Made by a program: the position numbers and the translations under genes. Shown one piece after another: positions 1 to 60,587 of a stretch of 64,000 bases of DNA (positions within the stretch are counted from its first letter, which is position 1; each line of letters opens with the position of its first letter). This DNA is from Eledone cirrhosa. Lineage: Eukaryota. The notes beneath the pieces are model-generated. The model made no database searches, was not told the origin of the DNA, and worked only from the letters and a program-made list of their open reading frames with translations. The DNA lies in assembly GCA_964016885.1 (NCBI GenBank), contig OZ024742.1, positions 112,716,001 through 112,780,000 on the forward strand, given 5' to 3'.

Positions 1-1175
1 TTTGCCCGGGATCGAGTAGCATGCGCCCGTCGTGGTCCACCAAAGACCGGATCGTGGCTTTGTTGCCACGACGCGCGTCCGCCACTCGGGCCCATTGAAC
101 GGCTTTCGTCCCCTCGTGTCTGAGAACACGCACCCTAGATTTTACAACGCAGCCTTCGTGTTTTGCATTGAAGAATTGGTCAAGGGCCAATCTTTCCACA
201 AGTACGTCGGTCGCGATGTCTTTGTCAAGCGCCTCGTCTAATTTTCTAACTAATTCTCCCTCTGCTCTATTTTTCTCTATTGCTAAAGCCTTACTAAACC
301 TAATGGACTCTATTCTAATTGCTCTTTTCAGAGCAAACCACCACTTGTTGTTGACGATGGCCCTCGTCAACGCCCGCTTAACTAGTTGGCTAATCCGGTC
401 TCTGTAGGCCTTGCGCGCTGGTAAGGACGCGTTTAGCTTCCAGTAGCCGGGTCCCCGTCTATGAAGCCTATCAAAGTCAAGCACACATATCACGAATTTG
501 TGGTCCGTGTAGCTGACTATATTGAATTTTGGACAGCCTATTCTAGACTTATCTATTTCCCTACAACATACTCTATCTAGATATGATCTGGATGACCCTA
601 TGCGATTTGTCCAAGTCCACATTGGTACATTCGGGAAATCCAATCGGTACCTGTTAGACAGTTCAAAACGCCTGAGCAGGTTGGTGAGGCTCTTGGACCC
701 TCCACCCCTATCCACTAATCCAACACAGTCCCAGCGTGCATCTAATATGCCGTTCCAGTCTCCCACTAGCACTAAAGAGCGGGACGTTCCAAGAAAGGTC
801 TCCAGACCCCGGAAGAAATCAGGCCGCCCTGCTCCTGTCGGGGCATAGACGGCCACTAGCGAATGCTTGCCCGTCTCGTTGGTCACGTCCAGATCCACCG
901 ACTTAACTTCTGGGTACAGAAAGATTGCCCGTATGGCGAGATCCAAACCTCTCTGAAAAAGCACAGCAACTCCTCCCCGATACAGGACTGTTGGGAGATG
1001 CGTACACATCGTAGCCGCCGAAGATCGGTGCGAAGGCCCGTGCTTCGGAGATTCTGGTCTCGCTGATGGCCACTTCATCTATGTTTAGTGACCCGAGGTC
1101 GTTGAGCAGGTGGCCCTCCTTCAGTGACGACCCAAAGCCACGCGCATTTATGCTGCCTATTCTGAGTGAGGTCAT
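1..1175 (-). pseudogene. Tx1 ORF2 N-terminal part (APE endonuclease), frameshifted
   Basis: SINARG...ISETR APE motifs; frameshift near 970; DNA closely matches 38220-39400. Confidence 0.9.
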
Positions 1176-1209
1176 GTTGAAGTGGAGTGGAAAATATGGG
1201 AAAGACCAC

Positions 1210-3149
1210 CTCCCTTACTTCTCGTAGAGGAAGGATAGTTTGTCCATCCTTTTCACTGCTTGTGGCCTCCCCCGGAAGGATGTCCTTATAAATCCTCCTG
1301 GAGTGTGTTTGTCGGAAGTCTCCGATGTCTTTGAGGAATTTTTGTTTTAGTGTCGTGTACGTTTTCTGCGTGATGCGAGTAATTTCTATATGTGGAGCTG
1401 GTGTGAACTTTTGGGTTTTTGTGTAGTCCTTTTCTGTGATGCTGGTTTGTGTTGGATGTAGTGTAATAATTGGTTGTTGTTCAAATGTATTGCTGTGTAG
1501 TGTGTATCATTTTGGTTATTTTGTTTGTTTGCGTTTGTTGTGGGTTTGTTTCTGTTTTGATTTTTGGTGACTTTTGTGATGTTGGTGATGGTGGTGTTGG
1601 GGTTAATGATGGTGATGGTGTTGGTGTTTATGGTAATGGGGTTGGTGATGCTGGTGTGAATGGTGGCATACCTGGGCTAACTTTTTTGTTTGATAGTTTA
1701 TTTGATTTCCACTGTAATTTGTTTTTGGAGGGGTTGATTGGGATCTTTTTGGGGGGGTTTCTTTTTCTTTTTTTCGTTTTTTCTGATACCGTTTCCCACT
1801 CCTCATCGTCACAATCTGTCTCCAGTTGCGATAGGTCGGGGAGTGGAAAATCCTCCACAGGCGTTGGTTTTGGGTTGTGGCGTGGTAGATGGTGTAGGCG
1901 CTGGTGCTAGTTCTGGCGCGTTGGGTGCTGGTGGTGTTGCTTTTGCTACTATTGCTGGGTTTGTTGCTGTGACAGTTGCTTTTGTTGTTGCTGCTACAGT
2001 TGTTGCTGCCATTTCTGCTGCTGGTGGTGTTGATGGATGAGTCACTGGGGTGGGTAAGAGAGGTGGCCTCAACCTTTTAGCCTGAGGGCAGAAAGCCCTT
2101 AGGTGGGTTCCTTCACCACAAACGACACACCTATGCCTTTCTCCCTCGACGATTACGGTGAGGTGGCTGCCGTCGGTGAGGTCTATTACTTCTGGGATCT
2201 CCCCAATGCTTTTTTGGTCCACTTGGATCAGGTGCTCCATCCCTGATACGTCCATTTCGCCTGCTTTTCTTTCGCTTTTTCGATTATCTTGGTGTTGGCT
2301 TCGATGCCGGCGAGGACGGCAGCCATTAGCCAGGGAATTTCGATGGCCGGTGGAACGTAGGTCACCCTGATCTTTACGAGTCTCTGGCCACAATAGCTTG
2401 GGACGAGTGTGAAGTCGTCACTTCTTAATGGGCCATGGAGTGTTCTCTGGCCTCCTGTGGTGTTTCAAAGGACACGTCCACGGTTTCATATTTCTGCACA
2501 CGTCTGATGTCGGTTTTTTTTGCCCACACATGTCCCAAATATTTTTGGACTTGGGACTCGGATGCCCGTTCCATTCGGCGCGATTTTATACGGTGCATAG
2601 GCGCCGATGCTCCATTTTATTGGGTGGTTGAGGGTTGGGCTGTACCAATCGTTCTTTACCATTTGTTTGGCTTCTTCTAATTCCTCCTGATTTACCGGGA
2701 ATGCTTGGCACATTTTTGCTACTCTGGCAAAAGATAGGGTTTTCTTATTCTCATAGTTGCTGTTGTATTTATCGTTATTTTTATTATTATCAATTTTAGT
2801 TTCAGTTGTGGTGGTGGTGGCGTCAGTGGTGTTCGGTGAAGAAGAGTTCATTTCGGTTGAATTCATTTCGATATCACGAGTTAATTTTTTTTTTGTTTCT
2901 GTTGTCGCGTGGTGGTGGTGGTGGTGCATGTGTGTGTGGGGGGGGGTTCGCGGTGGTTGTGGTGGCGGTGGTGGCGGCTTTAACACCTGCAGTCATTGGT
3001 AATGGCGGGAAATAAATGTCTGTCTGAGACAAATTTAAAGTATTGCTACTGCTTATATTTTTAGTGTTGACAAGCGTAGTAATATTTACAATGGTGGTGT
3101 CGGTGTGAGGTGTAAGTTTGTGAGAAAGGAGTGACTCTGAGTCAGCCAT
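1210..3149 (-). pseudogene. Tx1 ORF1 (gag-like, single CCHC knuckle), multiply frameshifted
   Basis: Fragments 2874-3149, 2486-2986, 1809-2393 and 1628-1858 are collinear with ORF1 at 36111-38184 (EELEEAK.MV, P.VID...G, PLPDL). Confidence 0.85.
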
Positions 3150-26581: not shown

Positions 26582-26619
26582 ATTATTATTATAAAGTAGA
26601 AACAATTATTATAATTATT

Positions 26620-30160: not shown

Positions 30161-30686
30161 GTGGCACCATCACGCTGTAGACGAATACAAATAAACACAC
30201 AAACAAACAGGCAGAAAAAACCCCAACAATGAATAAGCATAAATTTCGTTGTAATGTAGTGTTTGAATGTCTGACATTAGTTTTTCCCTTCCCTTCTCTG
30301 TCCGCCTGTTTGTTTTTCTCTTCATTCTTATTTTCTTTACGTTTTTCGTCGTTGCTGTGCTGCTTTGATTTTGATTTTGGTTTTTTTAATTTGACCGGTC
30401 TTCAATTCAGTCTATTTATATATTTTGATGCCTTCCTCTTTTAGTGAGAATTCTACAAAGTAGCAGGGGCTAGCGGGAGAGAATAGCGGCGGTAGTGATA
30501 TTGAGGCAGTTGTCGTGATGGTGGTGGTGGTGCTGTGCTAGCAGGAGGTAGTGGGAGAGATAAGCGGCGGTAGCGATAATGAGGCAGTGGTGGCGGTGAT
30601 GTGGTCGTATTACTGTAGTGATGGTGTTGAAGTTGGAGTAGAAATTTGAGTCGACTTGACCAGATTATTATTATTATTATCCAGAC

Positions 30687-30717
<31 letters not shown>

Positions 30718-30729
30718 GTTATTGTTATT

Positions 30730-33700: not shown

Positions 33701-33838
33701 TCATCTCCTCAGTGGCCGTATCTCTGTTCCAGGTATTATTTATCTCAGTATTCAGATCATTGTCTGCTTCGGGTGGTTCCTCCGTTCTCAGGACCTCCTC
33801 ACCTTCATTTCCCGCCGGCTCGCTTGTCTGGCATACTA

Positions 33839-33840
<2 letters not shown>
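30730..33840 (-). mobile_element. R4/Dong-clade family A, copy A3, 5'-truncated, young
   Basis: ORFs 32727-33974 and 30804-32720 are in one frame, separated by a single TAG; (TAA)n on both sides. Confidence 0.95.
30804..33840 (-). pseudogene. R4 family A RT-CCHC-RLE ORF with one nonsense codon
   Basis: [52 protein letters not shown]; the TAG at 32727 is TGG in A1 and A2. Confidence 0.9.
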
Positions 33841-33886
<46 letters not shown>

Positions 33887-33900
33887 TATTATTATTATTA
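33841..33900 (-). repeat. (TAA)n tract between B3 and A3
   Basis: About 20 units. Confidence 0.97.
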
Positions 33901-35878
33901 CAGTTGCATTTATCTTGCTTTATGTTCATACGAGTTATCACCAAGACACAACCAGTGACCTCAAGAGACAACAAGGTCCGCCATGTTCAAGAAAGAACAT
34001 ACATATTCACACATGCATCTTTAGTGTTTAGACTGGTGATGTACTTATGTTGACAAAATCTTCCTTAGTATATGGGCAGTTCCCATTAATACTCTCTTTT
34101 GTATTTCTTCTATACGCGGGTTTCCTGGGATTTGCGATATGTAATCATTAGACCCCTTAGGTATCATTCCCAGAGCGCCTACAACCACTGGTATGTTTTA
34201 GTTCTCAATTTCCAAATTTTTCCAATTTCTATCTCCAGGTCCTTATACTTGCTCAATTGTTCAAATGTTTTTATAGATACATTCTTGTCTATTGGAACAG
34301 ACATATCAATTAGCAGGCATACCCTCTTTTGAAAGTCCTTCAATATTATATCAGGTCTGTTTGCATCTATTTTTCGGTCTGTTTGGATGCTAAAGTTCCA
34401 CAAGATTGAGATGTGATCTTTTTCAAGTATGGGAGGTGGTTGATGCTCACACCAATTCTTTTGATGGGGCAGGTCAATATGCTTACACATTATCCAATGT
34501 ATGTATTGTGCAGCTCTGTCATGCCTGTTTAGGTATTCGGTTGGAGCTATAGGACTACACATTGAAATTATATGGTCAATGGTCGCTGGTTGTTTTTTAC
34601 ATACACGGCATAATGGGCTGCACCAATTTTTTATTATGTTGGCTTGGTAATTTTTTGTTGGCAGACACTGATCTTGTGCCGATATAATCAGTCCTTCAGT
34701 CTCCGATTTCAGTCCAGAGGATGCCAACCACTGATGGGTTAAAGTTTTGTCAACATCAGGATTGTTAGCTCGCTCTGGGTATTTTCCATACAGAGGCTTT
34801 TCTTGCCATTTCTTAGCCAGTTTCTGTAGCAGTTCTTTCTTTGCAGTTACTTTTACCTGCTTTGCCTTTTCTGTGTTTTCCATTTCAGCAGTAAATGGGA
34901 CTTCAGGAATGTGTAGTCCATTACTGTATCTTTGTGCATATTTTGTAATGGAGTATCTTTTGATGCTTTCGTGTTTCAAAACGAGTTTGATCATCCAATC
35001 ATGTGATTCCCTTAGATATGTAGATAATCCAATTGTTGCAGTTTTCAACGCAATGTATAACTGGATTAACCCACGTCCTCCTTCTTTCCTAGGGAGATAT
35101 ATTCTATCTATATCTGCCTTAGGGTGATGCATTCTGTGCATGGTTAAGAATTTTCGGATTTTTTTATCGAGCCTACGGACCTCTGTGCTTGACCAGTTGA
35201 TGACATAGTAACTGTAGGTTACTACTGGTATGGCAATCGTGTTTATGGCATCGATCCTATTCCTTGCATTCAATTCCGTTCTTAAGATTGCTCTTACTCT
35301 GCGGTAACATTCCTTCCTTATCCTTTCCCTCATTGTCGAGTGCTTGATTCCGTCTCCTTCACAAACACCTAGATATTTGTAAGTTTTTTCTTGATCAAGT
35401 TCTCTTATCACGTTCCCCCGATCAAGATTAATGTCTGAACTCTTCAGCAGCTTTCCTCTGGTGAACGTTGCTTTGGCGCATTTGTCTAGTCCAAACTCCA
35501 TTTTAATGTCATCACTGAACTGCTTCACAGTGGATAATATCCCTTGCAATTGTTCATCATTTTTTGCAAATAGTTTCAGGTCATCCATGTGGAACAGGTG
35601 ATTAATGGTTTTGTCATAGATTTTATATCCATGTTTTGTTTCATTGAGCATTTTACTTAATGGTATAAGTGCGATGCAGAATAAAAGCGGTGATAAAGAG
35701 TCAACCTGAAAAATTCCACATTTAATATTAACTTCTCCAGCTTCCAGTGATTTTGTTTCACTATTCAAAAGGAGTGTCGTTTTCCATGTCTTCATACTTG
35801 AATGACAAAAACCTCCTGACAATGGGGGATACTTTGAACATCTCTAAACATTTTTCAATCCAACTGTGTGGCAAACTA
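33901..35878 (-). mobile_element. R4/Dong-clade family B, copy B3, 5'-truncated
   Basis: 547-aa ORF 34179-35822 with RT, CCHC and RLE; same 3' UTR as B1; frameshifts near both ends. Confidence 0.94.
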
Positions 35879-36110
35879 TTATTATTATTATTATTGAATG
35901 CCATGGTTGACGGAGGCTCGGCTCTGTAAGGTATAGTAATTTTTAACCGATAAAACAATTGTGAATTGTTTAAAACTTGAACCAAATTGTTGATAAAGAC
36001 ACCCTCCTCCTCGTGAGAAGGGTCTTTCTGTCCGTTATTTGGCCCTTCGGAGTTAAATAACCAGTTATTGGGGTTTTGTACCCAAAATTTCATTTTAAAC
36101 AAAAAACAAC

Positions 36111-38184
36111 ATGGCTACGACAAAGAAATTTCATACGTCACTCCCACTCATTCCGTCTTCTTCTTCCTCAATCATCACTACAGCAGAGAGAAGATTGTCT
36201 CTCTCCCTCCCTTCTTTAAATGTGTCTCTCTCCCTCCCTTCTCTTTCGCAAGTGACGAAAGAAAAGAAAAGTCTCGTGCAAAGCGTGCAAGGTTTCTCCA
36301 CGACGACGACGACAGCGACGAAACAGGTGTGCGGGAAATACGAAAACCCAGTTCATTCGTCTGACGTCAGGAATAATAGCAGTAGCAGCCGTAATAACAA
36401 CAGCAACAGTGACAATGAAAACAACAGTAGCAGCCGCAACAGCATCACCAGCAGCATAAACAACAACAGCATTAGCAGCAGCAACACCAACAACAACCAC
36501 AGCAACAGCGGCGGAGGCAGTAGTCGTAGTACCTGCAGCAACAACAAAAGTACCAGCAACTCTGACGACAACAACAACAGCAGAGAAAAACCAATCTCAT
36601 TTGCAGGTATTGCGAAAAACTTGGAAACAATCCTCATAACAAATGAGGAATTAGAGGAAGCGAAGAAGATGGTGACAAAGAACGGACACCGAGCAATCTG
36701 CAAGGCAGCGGAAAAAATTTTCGAAACGCAAGAGCACTGTACGGTCACGTACCGTACAGTAAGTACAAAATCCCGTAGGGTGGAAAGAGCCACAGAGGCC
36801 CAAATACAAAAAGCCTTGGGGTTTGTGTGACAGCGGAAAACGCACATCACCCGAGGCAAAAAATATGCCACCGTAGACGTACTTTTTGCCACACCCCAGG
36901 AGGCAAAGTCCCAATCAGTAGTGACCCTAAGGAGCGAGGAAATGGTGTTGGTGCCCTCCTACTGCGGGCAAAAAAATTGTGAGGGTCAAACTGACCCACG
37001 TCCCCCCCGGAATGAGCCCTTCTTGGCTGGCCGCGTCTGTCCTCGTCGGAATCGAGGACAAAACAACTGTACTGCAAGTACAGAGAAAAGTAAGAGAAGA
37101 TTGGGTCGGCTCCTCCATTGAGATGCTAATCCAAACCAACCAGGAGTGCGTCGAAGCTATCCCGGATGTGATAGACTTCGATAACGGCACTCAACTGCCC
37201 ATAAGTGTTGAGGGCAAACGCCCGAAATGCTTTCGCTGTGGATCGAAGACTCACCTCAGGGGCTTCTGCAACGAGAAGACCCTGAGAAAGGAGAAAACCC
37301 CCCTCCTTCCGAATCCGGCTCCACGGCTACCAGCAACAGGACAAGCGGCAACCAGGAACGATAGGTCCGTGGCACCCATACCCACTCCACAGAAATCAAA
37401 AACAGCAGCAGCAGTGGAAATATTAACAACAACGACAGCAATACCAAATGCAGCTGCAACAGAGACTCCAGTGCAAACATCACCAACAACAACAAGTGAA
37501 AGAGTGGAGCTGGTACCCCTCCCCGACCTCACAGAATCAGACATGGAGTGTGAGGTGGGAGAGGGATGGCAAAAGGTCGCAAGAAGGCACAAACGCAGAA
37601 GCAGCGCATCGTCGCCTTTGAAAAGGGAGGAAAGAAATGAGAAAAGGGTAAAGTCTACTGCAAAGAGACCCACAGCAGCAACACCGGCACCACCATCACC
37701 ACCGGCGACAACCCCACCGCCAACAACACCTTCAACACCACCACCACAAGCACCAACATCGCAAACACAACAACAAAACACACACACCCAGCAACAACGA
37801 CAAGAAAATAGCAGAACCACACCCCACCCCCAGAAAAACAAATGCACGGCAATAAACACACACAACAAGAAACTAATGACTTACATAATTGAACACACAG
37901 ACATTTCACAACAGGACTACATAATACCAGCACCAATCAAAACGCCAACTAACATAAGACTGCTAAAAATAGCACAGAAACAATACACAAATATTAAAAC
38001 GAAATTTCCCAACGCAGTTGGTGATTTCAGGGACCTAGGAGGAACCATTAATCGAAGAGTATATTCAGACATTCTCTTAGAAGAGCCGACGACCAGCCGA
38101 AGGGACGATTCAACGGTCCCTTCACCAGACGATCAAGTGAAAAGGGATGTAAAAACCATCCCTCCTCTACCAAAAATACGGTAA
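36111..38184 (+). pseudogene. Tx1 ORF1 (Asn/Ser-rich N-terminus, RRM-like region, CFRCGSKTHLRGFC knuckle, Pro/Thr linker), with one stop and one frameshift
   Basis: The TGA at 36828 and the extra A at 36970-36976 are TGG and in-frame sequence in T1. Confidence 0.88.
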
Positions 38185-38219
38185 GTGGTCTTTCCCATCT
38201 TTTCCACTCTATTTTAAAC

Positions 38220-41200
38220 ATGACCTCACTCAGAATAGGCAGCATAAATGCGCGTGGCTTGGGGTCGTCATGGAAGCAGGGTCACCTGCTCAACGACCTC
38301 AGGTCACTAAACATAGATGTAGTGGCCATCAGCGAGACCAGAATCTCCGAAGCACGGGCCTTCGCACCGATCTTCGGCGGCTACGATGTGTACGCATCTC
38401 CCAGCCGTCCTGGATCCGGTGGAGGAGTTGCTGTACTTTTTCGGAGAGGTTTGGATCTCGCCATACGGGCCATCTTCCTGGACCCAGAGGGTAAGCTGGT
38501 GGTGCTGGACGTGACCAGCGGAGACGGGCAAGCTTTCAGGCTAGTGGCCGTCTATGCCCCGACAGGAGCAGGGCGGCCTGATTTCTTCCGGCGTCTGGAG
38601 ACCTTTCTTGGAACGTCCCGCTCTTTAGTGTTAGTGGGCGACTGGAACGGGATCTTAGATGCACGCTGGGACTGTGTGGGATTAGCGGATAGGGGTGGAG
38701 GGTGCAAGAGCCTCACCAACCTGCTCAGGCGTTTTGAACTGTCTGACAGGTACCGATTGGATTTCCCGAATGTGCCAATGTGGACTTGGACAAACCGCAT
38801 AGGGTCATCCAGATCATATCTAGATAGAGTATTTTGTAGGGAAATAGATAGGTCTAGCATAGGCTGTCCACAATTCAAGATAGTCAGCTACACGGACCAC
38901 AAATTCGTGATCTGTGTGCTTGACTTAGATAGGCTTCATAGACGAGGACCCGGCTACTGGAAGCTAAACGCGTCCTTACCAGCGCGCAAGGCCTACAGAG
39001 ACCGGATTAGCGAACTAGTTAAGCGGGCGTTGACGGGGGCCATCGTCAACAACAAGTGGTGGTTTGCTCTGAAAAGAGCGATTAGAATAGAATCGATTAG
39101 GTTTAGTAAGGCTTTAGCAATAGAGAAAAATAGAGCAGAGGGAGAACTAGTTAGAAAATTAGACGAGGCGCTTAGCAAAGGCATTGCGACCGACGTGCTT
39201 GCGGCGAAATTGGCCCTTGACCAATTCTTCAATGCAAAGCACGAAGGCTGCGTTGTCAGAGCTAGGGTGCGTGCTCTCAGACACGAGGGGACGAAAGCCG
39301 TTCAATGGGCCCGAGTGGCGGAGGCGCGTCGTGGCAACAAAGCCACGATCCGGTCTTTGGTGGACCACGACGGGCGCATGCTACTCGATCCCGGGCAAAT
39401 GTGTGAAGCTTTTCAGCGACACTTCGCTCAGCTGTTCGGGGGCAGCGGGGGGCCGGGTAGAGGGATGGACTTTAGTGTCTACCTCGACGGGCTGCCGCGG
39501 CTCTCGGCCACTGAGGCGAGGTGTTGCGAAAAGCCGATAACAGCCGCTGAAGTACGGGAGGCAATGACTGGCTGCACAAGGGGTAAATCGCCTGGTTTGG
39601 ATGGTCTGCCCTATGAACTTTACGTACAGATGCCAGACTTGTTCGGAGGCCTCTTGGCGGACGTCTACTGCAACTGGCAACAGAACGGGAGAATTCCCAG
39701 TTCTGTGAGCCGAGGAGCGGTGGCACTGCTGAGAAAGGATCCGAACAAGGGGGATAACATAGACAATTTCCGGCCCATAACTCTGCTAAACACAGAGTTT
39801 AAGATTTTGGCCAAGGTGCTAGCAAAGAGGTTGGCGCTTGTCGTTGGTGGTCTGGTGGGAGAGGCGCAGACATGCGCCATTCCCGACAGATCCATCCACG
39901 ACAACCTCCACCTCATGCGATACATCGTAGAGAGGGTAGCTAGGGAACCTGGCACGGGTGGGTCCTTGATCAATTTAGATCAGTCGAAAGCTTTCGATAG
40001 GGTCGACCATCGTTACCTAGCGGCAGTCCTGAGGGCGGCTGGCTTTGGGCCCGTCTTCAGAGGCTGGATCGCTGCCATGCACAGCGACATCTGCTCTGTG
40101 GTGAGAGTGAACGGTCACCTGTCGGAACCGTTCAACATCATGCGCTCGGTCCGCCAAGGATGTCCCCTCTCGTCCCTCTTGTACGTATTGACTCTCGAGC
40201 CATTACTGCACAAACTGGAGACGTTGAGGGGAGTCCCGCGCGAACTAGGATGCGGAAGATCCGTGTCAGCATATGCGGACGATGTCACCGTAGTGGTGTC
40301 GAACGCCAAACACATCGAGGCGATCGGCACTACACTAAGAGAATACGAAGCGGTGACAGGAGCAATGATCAACCAGGAAAAGTCAGTGGGCCTGCAGCTC
40401 GGCACCTGGAGAGGCAGGTCCATGCCGTCCAACAGCGTCGTCGGGCGCTGGACGGACGGACCGGTTAAATTGCTAGGGGTCTGGTTCGGTCCGGACCTCC
40501 AGACGGACAAAAACTGGGACGAGGTGACGAGCAGGGTGGCTTCTCTCACCCAGAAATGGGCGGAGAGGAAGCTATCCCTGAAAGGTCGAGCGGAGGTGGC
40601 TAACGCGTACATCGCGTCTGTCATCTGCTACCGCCTAACCGTCGTACCTTGTCCTAAGCCTCGCCTGACTGCGCTGGAGCGTTTGCTCTTTCGCTTTTTG
40701 TGGAAGGGACGTGCTCCGATGGTCAGGCGGTCCATCTGTTGTCAACACCCGCTACGTGGAGGGCTGGGCATGCCGTGGCTGATGATGCGCAGGCACGCGC
40801 TCAGGCTACGACATCTCCACCTCTTCCTCGACGGTGATCAGGTGTGGTCGCCGTTTGCTAGACGCGTTTTTCCCCAGCTCGTTTCCTTGACGGAGCTGCA
40901 GTCCTGGGTCAAGCGAAGACCGAGAGGGAGCGCCTGGAGACTGGAATGTCTTCAGGCGCTCACAGCCCTCGACCAATCGGGCAATGTGATCGGTGGAAAC
41001 TCCACCTCGGCGTTCTATAGAGGATTAGTGGAGGGGAAGAGCGACGACGTACTTGGGGAAACTCTAGGCGTCGACGAAAATCAACTAGCCAATCTCTTCG
41101 GAAGAACTTTCGGGCCAGGGCCTATGGACAACTTCCAGAAATCTCTGGCCTGGCAGTGCTACCGAGGAGCCTTGCCAGTTCGGGATAAACTCTACAGGCA

Positions 41201-41639
41201 TGGAGGTGCCGTCAGCCGGGCATGTCCGAGATGCGCGCAGGGCGACGAAACCGTCCTGCACGCACTCGTCCAGTGTCCGAAAATTGCTGACTTGTGGGTT
41301 TATGTCGAACACCTGCTGTCGCGTTTAGGACGGATCCAGCTATCATCTGAGTCCATCGTGAGGATTGCCCCGCCCTCCTCCTTTAGCCGGGAAGGGCAGG
41401 CAGTTTTTATCTGTCTGGTGGCCATGGCGAAAGAGATAGTATGGTGGACACGTTTGAAAGGGCTGAAGACGAGCACTTACCTCTTCGGTGATGCTCTGAT
41501 TGACTTTTTCAAATTTCATTTGAAAAGGAAAATCAGAGTAGAGAGGGAAGTGCTCTCTTCCCAGCATTTTGTTGAAAGATGGGTGAGAGAAGCAAGAATG
41601 GCCCGAGTGAATGGGCCGACTCTGAGTATATATCTGTAA
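38220..41639 (+). CDS. Tx1 ORF2: APE endonuclease + reverse transcriptase + C-terminal CCHC, intact (1139 aa)
   Basis: SINARG, SETR, GDWN, SYLDR, TDH; KSPGLDG, FRPITLLN, DQSKAFDRV, RQGCPLS, YADD; CPRC..DETVLHALVQC. Confidence 0.96.
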   Translation: MTSLRIGSINARGLGSSWKQGHLLNDLRSLNIDVVAISETRISEARAFAPIFGGYDVYASPSRPGSGGGVAVLFRRGLDLAIRAIFLDPEGKLVVLDVTSGDGQAFRLVAVYAPTGAGRPDFFRRLETFLGTSRSLVLVGDWNGILDARWDCVGLADRGGGCKSLTNLLRRFELSDRYRLDFPNVPMWTWTNRIGSSRSYLDRVFCREIDRSSIGCPQFKIVSYTDHKFVICVLDLDRLHRRGPGYWKLNASLPARKAYRDRISELVKRALTGAIVNNKWWFALKRAIRIESIRFSKALAIEKNRAEGELVRKLDEALSKGIATDVLAAKLALDQFFNAKHEGCVVRARVRALRHEGTKAVQWARVAEARRGNKATIRSLVDHDGRMLLDPGQMCEAFQRHFAQLFGGSGGPGRGMDFSVYLDGLPRLSATEARCCEKPITAAEVREAMTGCTRGKSPGLDGLPYELYVQMPDLFGGLLADVYCNWQQNGRIPSSVSRGAVALLRKDPNKGDNIDNFRPITLLNTEFKILAKVLAKRLALVVGGLVGEAQTCAIPDRSIHDNLHLMRYIVERVAREPGTGGSLINLDQSKAFDRVDHRYLAAVLRAAGFGPVFRGWIAAMHSDICSVVRVNGHLSEPFNIMRSVRQGCPLSSLLYVLTLEPLLHKLETLRGVPRELGCGRSVSAYADDVTVVVSNAKHIEAIGTTLREYEAVTGAMINQEKSVGLQLGTWRGRSMPSNSVVGRWTDGPVKLLGVWFGPDLQTDKNWDEVTSRVASLTQKWAERKLSLKGRAEVANAYIASVICYRLTVVPCPKPRLTALERLLFRFLWKGRAPMVRRSICCQHPLRGGLGMPWLMMRRHALRLRHLHLFLDGDQVWSPFARRVFPQLVSLTELQSWVKRRPRGSAWRLECLQALTALDQSGNVIGGNSTSAFYRGLVEGKSDDVLGETLGVDENQLANLFGRTFGPGPMDNFQKSLAWQCYRGALPVRDKLYRHGGAVSRACPRCAQGDETVLHALVQCPKIADLWVYVEHLLSRLGRIQLSSESIVRIAPPSSFSREGQAVFICLVAMAKEIVWWTRLKGLKTSTYLFGDALIDFFKFHLKRKIRVEREVLSSQHFVERWVREARMARVNGPTLSIYL

Positions 41640-41924
41640 ACTAAAGGTGGAAAACTGGGAGAGGGCACTTGCCTTGGTGGTCAGGGTCATTGTGGCTTTT
41701 TACTGGGCTTTCTCCACAAATGTCCCTCCGAAGTCTCCCCCCTATTGGGGAATTTTTCATTGTTATTTTCATTGTTATTTTTGTTACATCCTCTGTTTTT
41801 GTTTTTTTACACGCAGAAATGCCCATTTGTACCGTCCTGCATTGTCCTGCACTGTCCTTAATGTCTACTTTATGTAAACCCTTGTGGTTAATAAAGAAAT
41901 CATTATTATTATTATTATCCAGAC

Positions 41925-41955
<31 letters not shown>

Positions 41956-41967
41956 GTTATTGTTATT

Positions 41968-44900
41968 CCTTGAATCTCAGTCATTGATGTTGGTTAACTG
42001 GAAAGTCCGTTGGATTGAATATCAAGCTACTACCTGCAGCCTCAGATATTCAGGACGTATCGGAGGGTTATTGCCGTTCCAAGCAAGCATGCCTTTTGAA
42101 GCGTTCCAAAAAGCGTGAAGGGGCCGATTTTCTTTAACCATCCCTGGAAACCTTTGGAGATAGTCCCCAGTGCGCCTATGACAATCGGGATCACTTTGAC
42201 TTCATGGCAGTTCCAAATCCTTTTCACCTCCCACTTTAGGTCCTGGTATCGGTTAATGTTCTCCCTCTCCTTCTCTTGCACTCTCGTGTCGAACGGGCAG
42301 GCCACATCCACAATCAGGCACGATCTTTTTTCTTTGTCCACAACCACCAGGTCAGGTCTATTGTGTTCCAGTTTTTTGTCCGTCTGTATCCTAAAATCCC
42401 ACAGCACCTTCACCTGACTGTTCTCCATCACCGCCTCTGGCCTATGCTCATACCATCTCTCAGAATGTGGTAGATTGTTTACTTTGCACAGGTGCCAGTG
42501 GATCACCCTGCCCATCACATCGTGTCTCCAGCCCTTATAGTGGGTCTGGGCTAGGTGTTTACACTCAGACACAATGTGAGCCACAGTCTCCTCTCTCTCT
42601 CTACAGATCCTGCACAGTGGGCTAGCCTCCTCCTTGTAGATATGGTGCTTCAACCACTTCGTTTTGAGGGCCTGCTCCTGCGCAGCCATTAGCATTCCTT
42701 CTGTAGCCTTTTTGAGGTCTCCTCTTCTCAACCAGTTCCATGTCTGTGGATATCTAAATTCAGTTTTCTCAAAGAAGGTACTATGAAGGGATTTTCCCTT
42801 AAGGCTGCTCTTCCTCCTTGATGTTATTTCCTCCTTGGATATCCCCTGGCCTACTGTCCCCTCCTTCAGTACAGCTCTGAGCATTGGCTCCTTACTATAG
42901 GTCACGTATTTGTATAGGTTGTTTTTCTCCATCTGAACACAGTCCTGTATGCTGATAAGACCTCTTCCACCCTCAGATCTCCTTAGGTAGAGTCTATCGA
43001 CATCACTCCTCTTGTGGAACATGTTGTAGATAGTCAATAGCTTCCTAGTCTTCCTATCCATTTCTTTTTGTTCAGCAACATTCCATCTCAGAATTCCCGC
43101 ACTGTACCTAATAATAGACACAGCTCGGGAATTTACTGCGCTTATGGCATTTCTGCTGTTCAGATGTGACTTCAATACGCTCCTTACTCTCTGAATGTAT
43201 TCAGTTCTTAACAATTCCTTCATTTTTTTGTTCTTTATGCCATCAGCCTCCAGAACGCCCAAATACTTGTATCCTTCCTCAGAGTCAATTTCCTTTATCA
43301 TCTCACCTGTTGGTATCTGGATCCCGTTACTTCTGCTCAACCTACCCCTCTTCATCACAATGACTCCACATTCACCAATACCAAACTGCATACATATATC
43401 ACTGCTGAAAATACGGACAGTGTCAACAAGCACATCCAACTCCTTCTCACTTTTCCCGAAGAGCTTAAGATCGTCCATGAAGAGGAGGTGATTGATGGTA
43501 AGCTCTCCCCTTCCCAACTTGTATCCTGCTCTCACTTTTCGCAGCATAATGGTCAAGGGCATCAGGGCAAGGACAAACAACAGAGGGGACAGGCTATCTC
43601 CCTGGAAGATACCTCTCTTGATCTTCACGCTTCCCAAGGATACTCCAGTTGTTGTCAACTCTGTCTCCCAGAACCCCATACTCCTGCCCAGCAACTGTCT
43701 GATGTTATCTGCCACCCTGAAGATCTCCAGGCTTTTGGTGATCCAGGAATGAGGCACCATGTCAAATGCCTTTCTGTAGTCTATCCATCCCATGGCAAGA
43801 TCAGTGTGTCTCCTCCTGCAATTCCCCATTACCATCTTATCAATAAGCAACTGGTCCTTTGTACCACGTGACTTCTTTCGGCATCCTTTCTGTTCGTCCG
43901 GTAACAAGTTGTTTGTGTGGAGGTGATGGTAGATTTCCTCAGACACAATGCTCGTCAACAGTTTCTACATTACGGGCAGACATGTGATAGGTCTATAGTT
44001 GGTAACATCATTACCCTTGATTCGGTCTTTCATTATCAGAACTGTGGTACTTTTTGTCAACCACTCTGGCACCTCACCCGACACCAAGCAGTCATTGAAC
44101 ATGGCCGTCAGCTTCGGGTGGAGGGATGTTAAATGTTTAATCCAATACCCCTGCACACCATCTGGGCCTGGTGATTTCCAGTTGGTTAGTTTTTTGGCTT
44201 GCCCCTTAAGAGTTTCAACTGTGATACTCAAATCAGTCTGTTGTTGTGCCTGCTCACCGATCTCCCTCTGTACTGTCTCAATCCACCCTGCCTGGGCATT
44301 GTGTCTAACATCCTGCTCCCATATTCCTCTCCAGAATGTTTTAGCTTGTTCCGCCCCAGGGATCAAGTCGTTGCCTCTTTCTTTCCCCTCAAGCTGTCCA
44401 AACAGCATCTTCTGGTTGTTGTCGAACATGCGGTTCTGTTTATACTGACTGACTCTGTTCTCGTATCGCCTGATTTTGGCACTCTTTGCTACAATGCGTT
44501 GCTTCAATTCCTCTATGATAATATTTAGCTTTTTACTCCTAGTTTTGTATTTTATTTCCAGTCTATTTTTAGTGCCTATGTATTTTAGTGTCCCATTCTG
44601 TAGTGACTCAAGCTTTCCTATGTCATTTCTCATTTCCCCGATTTGCCCACTCAGTCGCTTCTTCCACCACGGCTCTGCTCTTTCTTGTCTGTTGTTTCCT
44701 CTCGCTTTTATACCAAGTAGTTTCCTCACCGTATTTGCTGTTTCTTTGAGGATATTGTTGCACTGGTGAAGACTCCTCGCCTCAAGGTATGGGATGACTT
44801 TGTTTACCTTAGCTGTAGTTTCTTTTAACTTTTCCCTGTCTACAAATCTTAGGTTCATAGGTCTCCCACTATCATTGTTCAACTCATCTACCACTAAATT

Positions 44901-45076
44901 TAGGATGTCAACCGAATCTTGTCCTAGACCGTCAGCATTCATCTCCTCAGTGGCCGTATCTCTGTTCCAGGTATTATTTATCTCAGTATTCAGATCATTG
45001 TCTGCTTCGGGTGGTTCCTCCGTTCTCAGGACCTCCTCACCTTCATTTCCCGCCGGCTCGCTTGTCTGGCATACTA

Positions 45077-45078
<2 letters not shown>
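41968..45078 (-). mobile_element. R4/Dong family A, copy A4 (duplicate of A3)
   Basis: Translations identical to A3, including the TAG. Confidence 0.95.
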
Positions 45079-45124
<46 letters not shown>

Positions 45125-45138
45125 TATTATTATTATTA

Positions 45139-47116: not shown

Positions 47117-47133
47117 TTATTATTATTATTATT

Positions 47134-50100
47134 GAATGCCATGGTTGACGGAGGCTCGGCTCTGTAAGGTATAGTAATTTTTAACCGATAAAACAATTGT
47201 GAATTGTTTAAAACTTGAACCAAATTGTTGATAAAGACACCCTCCTCCTCGTGAGAAGGGTCTTTCTGTCCGTTATTTGGCCCTTCGGAGTTAAATAACC
47301 AGTTATTGGGGTTTTGTACCCAAAATTTCATTTTAAACAAAAAACAACATGGCTACGACAAAGAAATTTCATACGTCACTCCCACTCATTCCGTCTTCTT
47401 CTTCCTCAATCATCACTACAGCAGAGAGAAGATTGTCTCTCTCCCTCCCTTCTTTAAATGTGTCTCTCTCCCTCCCTTCTCTTTCGCAAGTGACGAAAGA
47501 AAAGAAAAGTCTCGTGCAAAGCGTGCAAGGTTTCTCCACGACGACGACGACAGCGACGAAACAGGTGTGCGGGAAATACGAAAACCCAGTTCATTCGTCT
47601 GACGTCAGGAATAATAGCAGTAGCAGCCGTAATAACAACAGCAACAGTGACAATGAAAACAACAGTAGCAGCCGCAACAGCATCACCAGCAGCATAAACA
47701 ACAACAGCATTAGCAGCAGCAACACCAACAACAACCACAGCAACAGCGGCGGAGGCAGTAGTCGTAGTACCTGCAGCAACAACAAAAGTACCAGCAACTC
47801 TGACGACAACAACAACAGCAGAGAAAAACCAATCTCATTTGCAGGTATTGCGAAAAACTTGGAAACAATCCTCATAACAAATGAGGAATTAGAGGAAGCG
47901 AAGAAGATGGTGACAAAGAACGGACACCGAGCAATCTGCAAGGCAGCGGAAAAAATTTTCGAAACGCAAGAGCACTGTACGGTCACGTACCGTACAGTAA
48001 GTACAAAATCCCGTAGGGTGGAAAGAGCCACAGAGGCCCAAATACAAAAAGCCTTGGGGTTTGTGTGACAGCGGAAAACGCACATCACCCGAGGCAAAAA
48101 ATATGCCACCGTAGACGTACTTTTTGCCACACCCCAGGAGGCAAAGTCCCAATCAGTAGTGACCCTAAGGAGCGAGGAAATGGTGTTGGTGCCCTCCTAC
48201 TGCGGGCAAAAAAATTGTGAGGGTCAAACTGACCCACGTCCCCCCCGGAATGAGCCCTTCTTGGCTGGCCGCGTCTGTCCTCGTCGGAATCGAGGACAAA
48301 ACAACTGTACTGCAAGTACAGAGAAAAGTAAGAGAAGATTGGGTCGGCTCCTCCATTGAGATGCTAATCCAAACCAACCAGGAGTGCGTCGAAGCTATCC
48401 CGGATGTGATAGACTTCGATAACGGCACTCAACTGCCCATAAGTGTTGAGGGCAAACGCCCGAAATGCTTTCGCTGTGGATCGAAGACTCACCTCAGGGG
48501 CTTCTGCAACGAGAAGACCCTGAGAAAGGAGAAAACCCCCCTCCTTCCGAATCCGGCTCCACGGCTACCAGCAACAGGACAAGCGGCAACCAGGAACGAT
48601 AGGTCCGTGGCACCCATACCCACTCCACAGAAATCAAAAACAGCAGCAGCAGTGGAAATATTAACAACAACGACAGCAATACCAAATGCAGCTGCAACAG
48701 AGACTCCAGTGCAAACATCACCAACAACAACAAGTGAAAGAGTGGAGCTGGTACCCCTCCCCGACCTCACAGAATCAGACATGGAGTGTGAGGTGGGAGA
48801 GGGATGGCAAAAGGTCGCAAGAAGGCACAAACGCAGAAGCAGCGCATCGTCGCCTTTGAAAAGGGAGGAAAGAAATGAGAAAAGGGTAAAGTCTACTGCA
48901 AAGAGACCCACAGCAGCAACACCGGCACCACCATCACCACCGGCGACAACCCCACCGCCAACAACACCTTCAACACCACCACCACAAGCACCAACATCGC
49001 AAACACAACAACAAAACACACACACCCAGCAACAACGACAAGAAAATAGCAGAACCACACCCCACCCCCAGAAAAACAAATGCACGGCAATAAACACACA
49101 CAACAAGAAACTAATGACTTACATAATTGAACACACAGACATTTCACAACAGGACTACATAATACCAGCACCAATCAAAACGCCAACTAACATAAGACTG
49201 CTAAAAATAGCACAGACACAATACACAAACATTAAAACGAAATTCCCCAACGCAGTTGGTGATTTCAGGGACCTAGGAGGAACCATCAATCGAAGAGTAT
49301 ATTCAGACATTCTCTTAGAAGAGCCGACGACCAGCCGAAGGAACGATTCAACGGTCCCTTCACCAGACGATCAAGTGAAAAGGGATGTAAAAACCATCCC
49401 TCCTCTACCAAAAGTACGGTAAGTGGTCTTTCCCATCTTTTCCACTCTATTTTAAACATGACCTCACTCAGAATAGGCAGCATAAATGCGCGTGGCTTGG
49501 GGTCGTCATGGAAGCAGGGTCACCTTCTCAACGACCTCAGGTCACTAAACATAGATGTAGTGGCTATCAGCGAGACCAGAATCTCCGAAGCACGGGCCTT
49601 CGCACCGATCTTCGCCGGCTACGATGTGTACGCATCTCCCAGCCGTCCTGGATCGGGTGGAGGAGTTGCTGTGCTTTTTCGGAGAGGTTTGGATCTCGCC
49701 ATACGGGCCATCTTCCTGCACCCAGAGGGTAAGCTGGTGGTGCTGGACGTGACCAGCGGAGACGGGCAAGCTTTCAGGCTAGTGGCCGTCTATGCCCCAA
49801 CAGGAGCAGGGCGGCCTGATTCTTCCGGCGTCTGGAGACCTTTCTTGGAACGTCCCGCTCTTTAGTGTTAGTGGGCGACTGGAAAGGGATCTTAGATGCA
49901 CGCTGGGACTGTGTGGGATTAGCGGATAGGGGTGGAGGGTGCAAGAGCCTCACCAACCTGCTCAGGCGTTTTGAAATGTCTGACAGGTACCGATTGGATT
50001 TCCCGAATGTGCCAATGTGGACTTGGACAAACCGCATAGGGTCATCCAGATCATATCTAGATAGAGTATTTTGTAGGGAAATAGATAGGTCTAGCATAGG

Positions 50101-54649: not shown

Positions 54650-54705
54650 TCTACATATATCTATCAATCTATCTATCTATCTATCTCTCTATCTATCTAT
54701 CTATG

Positions 54706-54754
<49 letters not shown>

Positions 54755-54766
54755 GTCTGTCTGTCT
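54650..54766 (+). repeat. (ATCT)n microsatellite, 5' flank of T5
   Basis: Direct sequence. Confidence 0.95.
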
Positions 54767-57700
54767 GCGATGGACACAGGCGTGAAACTTGCTGGGTAAG
54801 TTCTGCCTAAATTTCTATAGAAATTGCTAACTGTAAACCTTCATTTTTATACCAATTTGAAGAGGGACTGCCAGGTCAAATTTTCATCTGACCAGTCTCT
54901 CAAAATAGTCCACGCCTTTAGGCGAAATAGTTCACAAAATGTTTTTTTGGAAAAGTTAACATTTTTTTAAAAATGGCTGAAGCTTCTTCACCAACATTTG
55001 AAGGAGGAAAGAGGAAGATATGCTTACAGCTTCCATCTGCCACTGTCATAGTAGCAGATGTCAATGACAAAGGTCAGCCAGAGGAAGTATTTTCTCCACC
55101 TGCTGACCGACAAGTTGACGTTGCCATGGCAACAAACCAAAAGCATGAAACAATGAACAAAAACAACACGACCAGCGGCACCAGCAACAACAACAACAAC
55201 AATACTCCGAACGAAAACAACACCAACAACAATAACAATAACAACAACAACAAGACCAATAACTGCAACAAAGAATTAAACGACAAAATATCGTTTGCGC
55301 AAACCGTAAAGAAAACGGTAAGCTACACTCCGGTAGATATTTCATATGCAAATGAGCTTTTGAATAACGCCAGACAGTACATAACTTTGGGGGAGACGGA
55401 TCATTCTCCATAAACTCTCCCCCAGATTTGCGAAGAGAAGCTGCCTTGAAAACTGTGGTTTTCAGGACAGTCTCAAACAAAACCAGAAAACCGACTCACA
55501 AGGCGAAATTGAGTTGGTTTTAGAAGATACCTTAAAAGACATTGCTTTCATTCAGAAGGGAAGACTCAACGGGAGTTTATACATTCTGATGAAAGACCAA
55601 CTGACGGCACAGAAATACTCTGTGTCGACAATTGTGTCACTGTTGTTCACCTTTTTCCTCACTTGCATTGGGAAAAGAACACAGAAAATAAAAATACAAA
55701 GTATCACACCAAGTATTGATATTTGGTAGGTACAATGTGGATTTTTAAACCTAGAAAAAGACACAATAATATCGGTAGGTAAGTCCTCCGGCGAACTGTT
55801 CAGCGGAACTAGCCTGGAAAAACTGGTCCAAATGACACCAGAACGAAGAGCTAGGATCTCGGAACGTGTGCTGCTGGATGGACTTATATACATAAACATT
55901 TCGGTCGAGGGTAGCCCTCATGTTACCACTGCCTAAGCAAGGATCACCTGAGAGCTTCCTCTCCTCGGCTAACTAGCCAAAAAAAGACATTACTGCCAAC
56001 GCCTGCAACACCAGCACAACAATCACCCCACCACCACAACAACAACATAAACAAATAGTGACAACAAAACAAACGACAAACACATTCCCACCCAACCCTT
56101 CCCCACCTAAAACAACTCCAGACACATAACAGCCCCCCAAAATGTACCCCTCCCCAACAACACAGATGAGGCCTCATCATCGTCACCCAGTGACGATGAG
56201 AGTGAGCCTTTCCGACCAGTAAAAAGAATAAAAAGAAAAGACATAACACAAACAAAAATGCAACAAACACACACACACCAACACAAGCGACGTAAACAGT
56301 ACAAACAAAAACACCCCCTCCTGAAAACAAAACACCTACTACAAAACGTAAACACACACAAGAACCACAGAAAAAAGCAACACAACACAACAAAAATGTT
56401 ACACCTACATAAATACTAACAATAACACTTTAACAGACACCATATATAAAAACCCTTAGGTGGAGACGGAAGGGAAAACTATTACACACTCTTCGGAGTT
56501 TCCTAATCTTAAAATGATTAGGATTTCCATGGACACACAAACAGTTAAAAGAAAAATTTCCTAACGACGTAGGTAATCCATGCGTCAAACCCTATAACCG
56601 CGTCCTTTTGAAATGTTTCCCTACCCCCACCCCATGCAGCCCCACCCCAACTGACACCCCGTCCCCACCTAACATCTCCGTCCCCACCCCGCCAGAGACC
56701 ATCACCCCACCAAACAACCCCTCCAACATCCCCATGGTAATTGTGTAGCCTGGTTCGCAGGAGATGAAGAGGTGAGTGATTTATTTTCCTCTTTTAACTT
56801 TTCAGCACCAACATGGCCAATATAAAAGTTGAATCTGTGAATGTACGCGGTCTGGGGTTGCCCTGGAAACAAGGCAAACACTTAAACGACCTCAGGTCGC
56901 ACAGTATGGATGTAGTAGCCATTTGCGAGTCCAGGATCCACAGCGAGCTACAACTGGCCCCATCTTCGACGACTTTGAGATCTACGCATCTCTCTGTCAG
57001 CCGGGTGGTGGGGGTGGTGTTGCCGTTTAGCAGCGGAAATACCTGCACCTCGTAACACCGACGGTACATCTGGACCCGGAGGGTCGACTGGTGGTCCTAG
57101 ACGTTGACGGTAGTGAAGGTGGAGGCATATGCCCCATCCGCGACACCGCGGCCAGACTTCTTCAAACGTCTAGAGACTTTTCTGGGAACGTCCCGCTCTC
57201 TGCTGTTAGTGGGGGACTGGAATGGAATCCTAGATGCACGTTGGGACTATGTGGGAGCATGTCCCGATAGAGGGGGTGTAACAGCCTCAAACAGTTAATC
57301 GGCCGATTTGACCTGGCAGATAGATATCGACTAGATTTTCCGACTGTGCCACTGTGGACGTGGACTAAATTCGGCGGGATATCTAGATCGTACCTAGATA
57401 GAAAGAAGGATAGGGACATGTTAAGCTGTCCACAAATGTTCATGGTTGCCTATTCAGATCACAAATTAGTGACCTGCTTAGTCAACTTTGACAAAACCCA
57501 TAGACAGGGACCCGGCCTGGAAGCTGAACTTATCGTTGCCGACATGCAAAGATTACAGTAGACGGAATAGCACTTTAGTTAAGCAGCACTTGACGGGGAC
57601 CATTTTCAACGACGTATGCTGGTACTCTCTCAGAGGGCAGTTAGATTAGACTCGATAGATGTTAGTAAAGAATTAGTGTTAGATAGAAATAAGAACGAAA

Positions 57701-60391: not shown

Positions 60392-60587
<196 letters not shown>

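What the first reader, a model, noticed from the sequence alone, without database searches (positions are those of the whole stretch)
38181..38233. Candidate spliceosomal intron that deletes the ORF1 stop and fuses ORF1 to ORF2 in frame
Seen: the ORF1 stop lies inside a consensus donor (CG|GTAAGT, 38181). A pyrimidine-rich, AG-free stretch follows, then TTTTAAAC, and the first AG is CTCAG| at 38233. Removing these 53 nt gives AAA ATA CG|A ATA GGC AGC = ...PKIR-IGSINARG, in frame with ORF2 and keeping the APE N-terminal motif. T4 has the same sites (49419-49471), and the divergent T5 has an equivalent. In the decayed T1 the site reads AG|GGAGGT, one change from GTAGGT with a TAG stop. Known: L1-type ORF2 is normally made by re-initiation, and splicing-controlled gag/pol ratios are known from LTR elements. 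Inference: unspliced RNA would give ORF1 and the transposition template, and spliced RNA would give an ORF1-ORF2 polyprotein. I do not know of this strategy in a LINE.
Basis: partly seen in the sequence, partly recalled or inferred. Interest (0 to 1): 0.85.

Follow-up and report, generated by a model that had tools for sequence, protein, structure and literature searches.

The report
Conserved splice donor ending LINE ORF1
A jumping gene (LINE) keeps a strong splice-donor signal at the end of its first gene across distant relatives, more likely to make a message for that first gene alone than to fuse its two genes as first proposed, but no RNA data were available to show that any splicing happens.

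Summary
The sequence is as described: donor G|GTAAGT at 38181 over the ORF1 stop, first AG at 38233, 53 nt, both phase 2. The fusion reading is weak. ORF2 has its own ATG (38220) inside the 'intron'. The AG is simply Arg codon 5, there is no branch-point match, and T4 is a 99.5% duplicate of T3. Relatives from other animal hosts (same RT clade, 42% ORF2 identity) keep a perfect donor, but after the ORF1 stop and only 11-13 nt before ORF2's ATG, where it cannot fuse the frames. They carry a second donor just after the ORF2 stop. So the conserved thing is the donor, not the short intron. Best guess (0.33): it splices to a far acceptor in the 3' UTR (41816 in T3), cutting out ORF2 to give an ORF1-only mRNA, as copia does for Gag. 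Rivals: chance, stop context or an RNA stem (0.25); U1 binding without splicing (0.2); the fusion (0.12); an ORF2-only mRNA (0.1). One related family lacks the donor, and the 3' UTR acceptors are only modestly above shuffles. No RNA run could be tested.

The parts
35896..41903 (+). Full-length Tx1-like LINE copy T3, between (TTA)n repeats; ends approximate
36111..38184 (+). ORF1 (CCHC knuckle, low-complexity linker, C-terminal domain); broken in this copy by a stop at 36828-30 and a frameshift near 36970
   Evidence: knuckle region similar to family A and B ORF1 at E 1e-7 and 3e-6
38178..38186 (+). 5' splice-site consensus ACG|GTAAGT containing the ORF1 stop (38182-84); the feature conserved in relatives
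   Evidence: strongest of 314 GT sites; relatives
38187..38219 (+). Pyrimidine-rich inter-ORF spacer without AG; length varies by 1 nt among copies
   Evidence: table 4
38220..41639 (+). Intact ORF2, 1139 aa, own ATG; endonuclease, RT, zinc finger
38231..38233 (+).
41791..41816 (+). Pyrimidine tract + CAG in the 3' UTR; strongest YAG of the element (13.7), candidate far acceptor; 19 codons to a stop follow in the phase-2 frame
   Evidence: 13 of 500 shuffles reach it
41890..41895 (+). AATAAA before the (TTA)n tail
49416..49471 (+). Same donor, spacer and AG in T4 (duplicate of T3, not independent)
56769..56815 (+). T5 junction: donor GAG|GTGAGT (56772), strongest YAG of T5 at 56805 (34 nt later), ORF2 ATG 56813
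   Evidence: rank 1 of 162
54793..54801 (+). Donor consensus TGG|GTAAGT about 30 nt from the 5' end of T5; possible partner of the 56805 acceptor
1162..1216 (-). T1 junction, decayed copy: donor lost (two changes), same spacer and ORF2 start (ATG 1175)

Best explanation
The element is a bicistronic Tx1-like LINE. ORF2 starts at its own ATG (38220) on unspliced RNA, which is also the transposition template (ATG shown; re-initiation inferred from known L1 biology). The GTAAGT at the ORF1 end is a clade-conserved 5' splice site (recurrence shown; U1 binding inferred). Its most likely job is to splice part of the time to a far acceptor in the 3' UTR (41816 in T3, a 3.6-kb intron), removing ORF2. 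That gives an ORF1-only mRNA and raises the ORF1p:ORF2p ratio, as copia elements do for Gag (inferred; no RNA evidence). The stop sits in or next to the junction, so such an mRNA would escape nonsense-mediated decay (50-nt rule, own knowledge).
For: A donor of at least 10 bits lies within 25 nt of the ORF1 stop in T3, T5, family A and L261, against 0.005-0.019 expected per 40-nt window (T5 minus strand had none). These elements fall in one RT clade, 100/98 (L261 not in the tree). The spacer differs between family A and L261 while AG|GTAAGT stays. In both, the donor follows the stop and lies 13 or 11 nt before the ATG, so any partner must be downstream of ORF2's start. Every 3' UTR examined has a YAG after a pyrimidine tract, 149-266 nt past the ORF2 stop; in T3 it is the strongest of 209 YAG. 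Families A and B and 3 of 4 G002 copies keep a second GTRAGT just after the ORF2 stop, with A/G exchange at +3, which fits a used 3' UTR acceptor. Precedent: spliced subgenomic GAG RNA of Ty1/copia (PMC7197481, passages).
Against: No spliced RNA was seen. No precise ORF2-less copy turned up: 71 of 71 anchored family A ORF1 ends run on into ORF2 (tandem arrays, few independent insertions). Family B has no ORF1-end donor (best 3.6 bits), and decayed T1 and L258 have lost it. The 3' UTR acceptors are weak against shuffles of U-rich UTRs: T3 13, T5 52, T2 107, family B 39, family A 2-158 of 500. T3 and T2 do not use the same AG, and the tails read after it are unrelated. Invariance inside family A says little, since 409 of 500 four-fold sites are also invariant. 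T2, T3 and T5 lack the ORF2-end donor.
Confidence: 0.33

Rival explanations
1. No spliceosomal role. The motif comes from stop-codon context (G-TAA-G), a local RNA stem and shared descent, and ORF2 is made only by re-initiation.
For: In T3 and T5 the stop supplies three of the six bases. In family A the donor pairs with ORF2 codons 4-6 in the predicted fold, and in T5 with the pyrimidine tract. Families A and B keep a second in-frame stop overlapping ORF2's ATG (TGATG), the usual re-initiation layout (own knowledge). Family B transposes without the donor. L219 and L222 show that a stop-donor overlap arises simply when a frame reads on into a downstream GTAAGT.
Against: In family A and L261 the donor is separate from the ORF1 stop. 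GTRAGT recurs independently after the ORF2 stop in families A, B and G002 (0-18 of 500 shuffles in 7 of 9 G001 UTRs; the other two have it on the stop). Fold z-scores are weak (-1.8 to +0.2).
Confidence: 0.25
2. The donor binds U1 snRNP without productive splicing, for example to suppress premature polyadenylation or to control export, and sits in the spacer because that is one of the few non-coding places.
For: Donors are better conserved than acceptors. Donor consensus occurs in all three non-coding zones: near the 5' end in T5 and 3 of 6 family A leaders examined, at the ORF1 end, and at the ORF2 end. In T5 and in family A 3' UTRs the nearest AG is only 34-39 nt away, below the ~50-90 bp shortest typical animal introns (PMC13644364, passage). 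U1 protection against premature polyadenylation is recalled, not read here.
Against: Strong acceptors are present and would invite splicing. T1 and T3 have only weak 5'-end donors (3.6-5.5 bits). Nothing tested here shows U1 binding.
Confidence: 0.2
3. One reading: a 52-53-nt (T5: 34-nt) intron removes the ORF1 stop and gives an ORF1-ORF2 polyprotein.
For: The first AG is in frame in both T3 and T5, at different positions (about 1 in 9 by chance given the donors). T5's ORF1-like frame runs to the stop inside the donor, with one internal stop 8 codons earlier. Ile/Val before the last Arg would replace Leu4, which aligns next to residue 9 of human L1 endonuclease. The T3 AG ranks 9 of 209 and T5's ranks 1 of 162. 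Donor and AG are intact in contigs X3 record 8 and X6 record 21.
Against: ORF2's ATG is kept in T1, T3, T4, T5 and in 52 of 61 relatives (gene callers favour a start codon). Position 5 is Arg in 6, Lys in 5 and other in 8 of 19 close relatives. Loose ends of three other families show AAG rather than YAG there (low-agreement consensus). There is no branch-point match, and 34 nt is very short. The strong donor follows the stop in family A and L261. No hit among the 61 N-termini carried an ORF1 knuckle.
Confidence: 0.12
4. The spacer's main splice feature is an acceptor for a 5' leader donor, giving an ORF2-only mRNA like human SpORF2; the nearby donor and acceptor are used alternately because they are too close to pair.
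For: T5 has its strongest YAG 8 nt before the ATG and a GTAAGT donor at 54796 in matching phase with an upstream ATG. A loose end in run X5 shows a pyrimidine tract + CAG 5 nt before the ATG (4 contigs, agreement 0.72). Precedent: SpORF2 (PMC2896524, abstract and section 18).
Against: T1, T3, family A and L261 have no acceptor between the donor and the ATG, and it does not explain the conserved donor by itself.
Confidence: 0.1

Closest known systems
Tx1-clade non-LTR retrotransposons (Kibi, Koshi, crocodilian Tx1; PMC4494074, passages); L1-Tx1 families of Octopus vulgaris (13 recently active; PMC13282606, passages and supplement search)
   Same: Two ORFs, endonuclease-RT-zinc finger ORF2, knuckle-bearing ORF1, insertion in microsatellites: (TTA)n for T1-T3, (TATC)n for T5.
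   Different: The passages read mention no splice sites at the ORF ends; clade placement was not tested against named references.
Ty1/copia spliced subgenomic GAG RNA (Drosophila copia, Arabidopsis EVADE; PMC7197481, passages)
   Same: A donor at the end of the structural-protein frame would yield an mRNA for that protein alone, while unspliced RNA makes the enzymes and is the template.
   Different: Copia is an LTR element with one gag-pol frame; here the ORFs are already separate, and splicing is not shown.
Human L1 splicing: SpORF2 (PMC2896524, abstract and section 18) and SpIREs (PMC5860796, passages)
   Same: A LINE with spliceosomal sites, including products that express one ORF alone.
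   Different: The L1 products remove ORF1 or leader sequence from 5' UTR donors; none described in what I read starts at the ORF1 stop or fuses the ORFs.
Introns in other non-LTR transcripts: TART antisense, L1, Tad, Penelope, Athena (listed in PMC1636488, passages)
   Same: Introns in retroelement RNA are known; TART's are 53-104 nt, one 489 nt.
   Different: TART's are antisense and non-coding, and the paper calls their importance not established.
Vertebrate L1 inter-ORF regions (PMC5381506, passages)
   Same: Short spacer and ORF2 with its own start; re-initiation or IRES proposed.
   Different: The word stems 'splic' and 'intron' do not occur in that paper's main text.

Membership tests
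Tx1-clade LINE | ORF2 with APE endonuclease, RT and C-terminal zinc finger | tested here: met
   Pfam PF03372, PF00078, PF13966; L1 endonuclease structures at E 4e-6
Tx1-clade LINE | Separate ORF1 with CCHC knuckle (feature recalled) | tested here: met
   zf-CCHC in family A (E 1e-5) and family B (E 0.002, below cut-off) ORF1; T3 has the pattern by eye and matches them at E 1e-7, with no Pfam hit of its own
Tx1-clade LINE | Target preference, such as microsatellites | tested here: inconclusive
   T1 (5'), T2 (3') and T3 (both ends) abut (TTA)n; T5 abuts (TATC)n; only four independent copies
Tx1-clade LINE | RT groups with named Tx1 references | not tested
   The tree holds only unnamed rows
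Spliceosomal intron 38181-38233 | Consensus 5' splice site | tested here: met
   10.2 bits, best of 314 GT sites
Spliceosomal intron 38181-38233 | Branch point 18-40 nt before the AG | tested here: not met
   By eye, no YTRAY at that distance; the proposed motif is absent in T1 and variable at 38216
Spliceosomal intron 38181-38233 | Pyrimidine tract next to YAG | tested here: inconclusive
   Tract ends about 17 nt before the AG; score 4.7, rank 9 of 209
Spliceosomal intron 38181-38233 | Length within the host's spliceable range | tested here: inconclusive
   53 nt is at the low edge of ~50-90 bp and T5's 34 nt is below it (PMC13644364); the host's range was not measured
Spliceosomal intron 38181-38233 | Sites and frame-fusing phase conserved across the clade | tested here: not met
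   Strong donor after the stop in family A and L261, absent in family B
Spliceosomal intron 38181-38233 | Junction in RNA | not testable with these tools
   The runs laid were contigs of unrecorded kind
Copia-type subgenomic splicing | Donor at the end of the structural-protein frame | tested here: met
   T3, T5, family A, L261; not family B
Copia-type subgenomic splicing | Conserved downstream acceptor | tested here: inconclusive
   Present in all 3' UTRs scored, but reached by 2-158 of 500 shuffles
Copia-type subgenomic splicing | Abundant spliced RNA on polysomes | not testable with these tools
   No RNA data

The most novel reading that the evidence does not exclude
This LINE clade uses the host spliceosome as a switch at the ORF1 stop, and in the T3/T5 lineage the donor has moved onto the stop so that a mini-intron gives an in-frame ORF1-ORF2 polyprotein, a gag-pol-like product not found for LINEs in the searches made here. 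The milder form, functional splicing from this donor to any partner, I put at about 0.45.
Probability: 0.12. Interest if true: 0.85.

Novelty: new variant of a known kind. Interest (0 to 1): 0.5.

Why it matters
How bicistronic LINEs set a high ORF1p to low ORF2p ratio is still open outside mammals. A 5' splice site kept at the ORF1 stop across elements only 42% identical in ORF2 points to control at the RNA-processing level, known from LTR elements but not found for LINEs in my searches. It gives exact junctions (38181 to 41816, 38181 to 38233, 54796 to 56805) that one RNA-seq data set can confirm or reject. If none is used, this is an ordinary Tx1-like LINE.

Tried and rejected
RNA: no RNA holder listed; this is no evidence either way. 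Four contig runs laid on 37750-38850: none of the 15 joints shown starts at 38180 (106 hidden), and none of the 40 variant rows shown falls in 38180-38186 or 38232-33 (252 hidden), so neither is counted as a result.
Fused proteins: ORF1 queries found nothing among 63 longer candidates or 10 candidates of 93-298 aa; weak. Cluster look-ups listed no fused member.
Related loci: protein scans of metagenome and viral contigs found none. The viral pattern scan gave 18 loci, none a relative. Seventeen distant L1/Tx1 loci mostly lacked ORF1 and showed no comparable donor; uninformative.
Programmed frameshift or readthrough: rejected, because spacer length varies by 1 nt among copies.
An acceptor-like site 154-160 nt before ORF2 in families A and B: set aside, it lies in a conserved coding motif, and L220, L223 and L239 did not reach threshold.
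A weaker stop-overlapping donor in family A with an AG at +20 would be in frame, but it would cut into the first endonuclease strand; that donor is missing in L239 and that AG in L220.
Homology of the ORF1 C-terminal domains of T3 and family A: not significant (E 0.78); the Atlas gave only hits under 0.9. Junction folds were not significant. Rfam found no RNA family in the three LINE-array loci scanned. Earlier-finding look-ups by place, sequence and two word sets were empty.
Full report
SETTING. The window has no genome behind it. It holds five copies of an L1/Tx1-type LINE: T1 (minus strand, about 1-3360), T2 (24067-26580, 5'-truncated), T3 (35896-41903), T4 (47.1-52.8 kb) and T5 (54.8-60.4 kb). 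T3 has an intact 1139-aa ORF2 with endonuclease, RT and zinc finger, but its ORF1 is broken. T3 and T4 belong to one 10,946-bp duplicate at 99.5%. The host is probably an octopus-type cephalopod; this is inferred from an Octopus sinensis protein hit at 64% over 18% of the query and the microsatellite-rich, AT-rich DNA.

OBSERVATION. The coordinates and arithmetic hold: donor at 38181 with the ORF1 stop inside it, next AG at 38233, 53 nt, phase 2 on both sides. With my own matrix (frequencies recalled) the donor scores 10.2 bits, the best of 314 GT sites in T3. The AG is Arg codon 5. Phase 2 at the donor is automatic when GT overlaps an in-frame stop, so the in-frame match has about a 1 in 3 chance per family. 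T5 has a donor at 56772 and its strongest YAG (1 of 162) 34 nt later, upstream of its ATG and also in phase. T1 has lost the donor.

PROTEIN EVIDENCE. Of the best 150 relatives of the endonuclease I took the 61 that reach its N-terminus. 52 of 61 have a Met 5-12 residues before the Asn (two rows were mis-registered by my script, and gene callers favour a start codon). None of the eight longer N-termini checked has an ORF1 knuckle. Among 19 close relatives, position 5 is Arg in 6, Lys in 5 and other in 8, so an acceptor made of this codon cannot be general.

DNA RELATIVES. A motif scan gave 218 loci, 98 of them with a tblastn match to ORF2. The closest are animal-like LINE arrays binned into two prokaryotic assemblies, G001 and G002; their hosts are unidentified. 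Families A and B of G001 are 42-43% identical to T3's ORF2 and group with T3 and T5 at 100/98. In family A the junction reads stop, G, then GTAAGT, 13 nt before ORF2's ATG (12.7 bits), in 71 of 71 anchored ends (overlapping loci counted twice, tandem arrays). In G002, L261 has a different spacer but again AG|GTAAGT after the stop, 11 nt before the ATG; L264 has GTAAGT on the stop with the ATG deleted; L258 has lost the donor (all three decayed). Family B has no ORF1-end donor. So 3 of the 4 other lineages (T5, family A, L261; not B) have a donor of at least 10 bits within 25 nt of the ORF1 stop, against 0.005-0.019 per 40-nt window. They are related, so this shows retention, not independent origin. 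Invariance within family A is uninformative, because 409 of 500 four-fold sites are invariant too.

A SECOND DONOR. Families A and B and 3 of 4 G002 copies carry GTRAGT 17-43 nt after the ORF2 stop, while the sequence just behind it diverges. In L219 and L222 the upstream stop is lost and ORF2 now ends on the TAA inside that donor, the same look as T3's ORF1 end. The overlap of stop and donor can therefore be incidental. T2, T3 and T5 have no such ORF2-end donor.

WHICH PARTNER. Where the donor follows the stop, it cannot fuse the frames. All 3' UTRs scored hold a pyrimidine tract + YAG: T3 at 41816 (13.7, rank 1 of 209; the 38233 site scores 4.7, rank 9), T2 at 26473, T5 at 60310, family A 238-266 nt and family B 185 nt past the ORF2 stop. 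Against 500 dinucleotide shuffles these are only modestly special (T3 13, T5 52, T2 107, B 39, A 2-158), and T3 and T2 use different AGs. Splicing from 38181 to 41816 would remove ORF2 and leave ORF1 with 19 further codons before AATAAA. No such retrocopy was found in family A.

READS. Four contig runs were laid on 37750-38850. Contigs bridge the site unspliced in three runs (X3 record 8, X5 record 11, X6 record 21), and the differences listed for X3 and X6 lie outside donor and AG. Common variants flank the donor (38171, 38173, 38176, 38179), and the one at 38179 improves the consensus. One-base spacer deletions argue against a fixed frameshift. Contigs cannot show splicing here; see Tried and rejected.

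MECHANISM. Shown: separate ORFs, ORF2's own ATG, a recurring donor consensus at the ORF1 stop, candidate acceptors. Inferred: U1 binding, use of the 3' UTR acceptor, an ORF1-only mRNA, escape from decay. My odds: ORF1-only mRNA 0.33; no spliceosomal role 0.25; U1 binding without splicing 0.2; fusion in the T3/T5 lineage 0.12; ORF2-only mRNA 0.1.

LITERATURE. Searches (listings only, apart from the papers named) showed no LINE with an intron that fuses ORF1 to ORF2 or a donor kept at the ORF1 stop. The library holds Creative Commons papers and preprints only; subscription papers, Repbase reports and bioRxiv supplements were not seen and could describe this. Read in part: PMC7197481 (passages), PMC2896524 (abstract and section 18), PMC5860796 (passages), PMC5381506 (passages), PMC1636488 (passages), PMC13644364 (passages), PMC4494074 (passages), PMC13282606 (passages and a supplement search). 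The branch-point consensus, the 50-nt decay rule and U1 protection from premature polyadenylation are recalled.

VERDICT. What remains is an untested but specific lead: a Tx1-like clade that keeps 5' splice sites at its ORF stops. New variant of a known kind, interest 0.5.

Noticed in passing
window 30664-41609 and 41902-52842: Tandem 10.9-kb duplicate (99.5%) of an RTE-like element plus the Tx1-like element; the second copy has two ORF2 frameshifts and ends before the 3' UTR. Recent duplication or uncollapsed assembly.
   Followed up: partly
window 3363-3400, 26572-26600, 35877-35895, 41903-41970, 54660-54768, 60391-60430: T1-T3 abut (TTA)n and T5 abuts (TATC)n, suggesting two microsatellite-targeting families.
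   Followed up: partly
L219-L255 (G001 contigs C2-C19): A bacterial bin holds many animal-like contigs: head-to-tail arrays of about 70 mostly intact 6.4-6.9-kb LINE units, and tRNA arrays.
   Followed up: partly
L289-L294 (G002:C16): The contig is 61-65% GC in three samples up to 220 kb and 35-37% GC and repeat-rich from 300 kb on: probably a bacterium-host chimera.
   Followed up: no
L235:12492-12525 and equivalents in family A: The donor after the ORF2 stop is followed by a pyrimidine tract and YAG 34-39 nt later, the same size as T5's spacer cassette; a second acceptor lies about 240-265 nt past the stop.
   Followed up: partly
L235:9008-9012; L234:12631-12635: A second ORF1-frame stop overlaps ORF2's ATG (TGATG) in families A and B, a stop-start layout typical of re-initiation.
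   Followed up: partly
5' leaders of L219, L226, L233: An inverted repeat of about 15 bp, visible by eye, covers a donor-like GGTAAGA in the 5' UTR.
   Followed up: no
family A, L219-L239: ORF2 differs by only 2-7% among eight subfamilies while 5' UTRs and ORF1 N-terminal halves differ strongly, which suggests swapping of 5' modules.
   Followed up: no
window 54768-54801: T5's first 30 nt hold an ATG whose frame meets the 54796 donor in phase 2, matching the 56805 acceptor; may be chance.
   Followed up: partly
protein P0005, matched by window 38220-39209: An Octopus sinensis 'tectonic-3-like' model begins with a fragment of this endonuclease, probably a gene-model chimera.
   Followed up: no
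window 32730-33986 (-): A frame of the RTE-like element has a weak coiled-coil hit (PF09006, E 1.5e-4).
   Followed up: no
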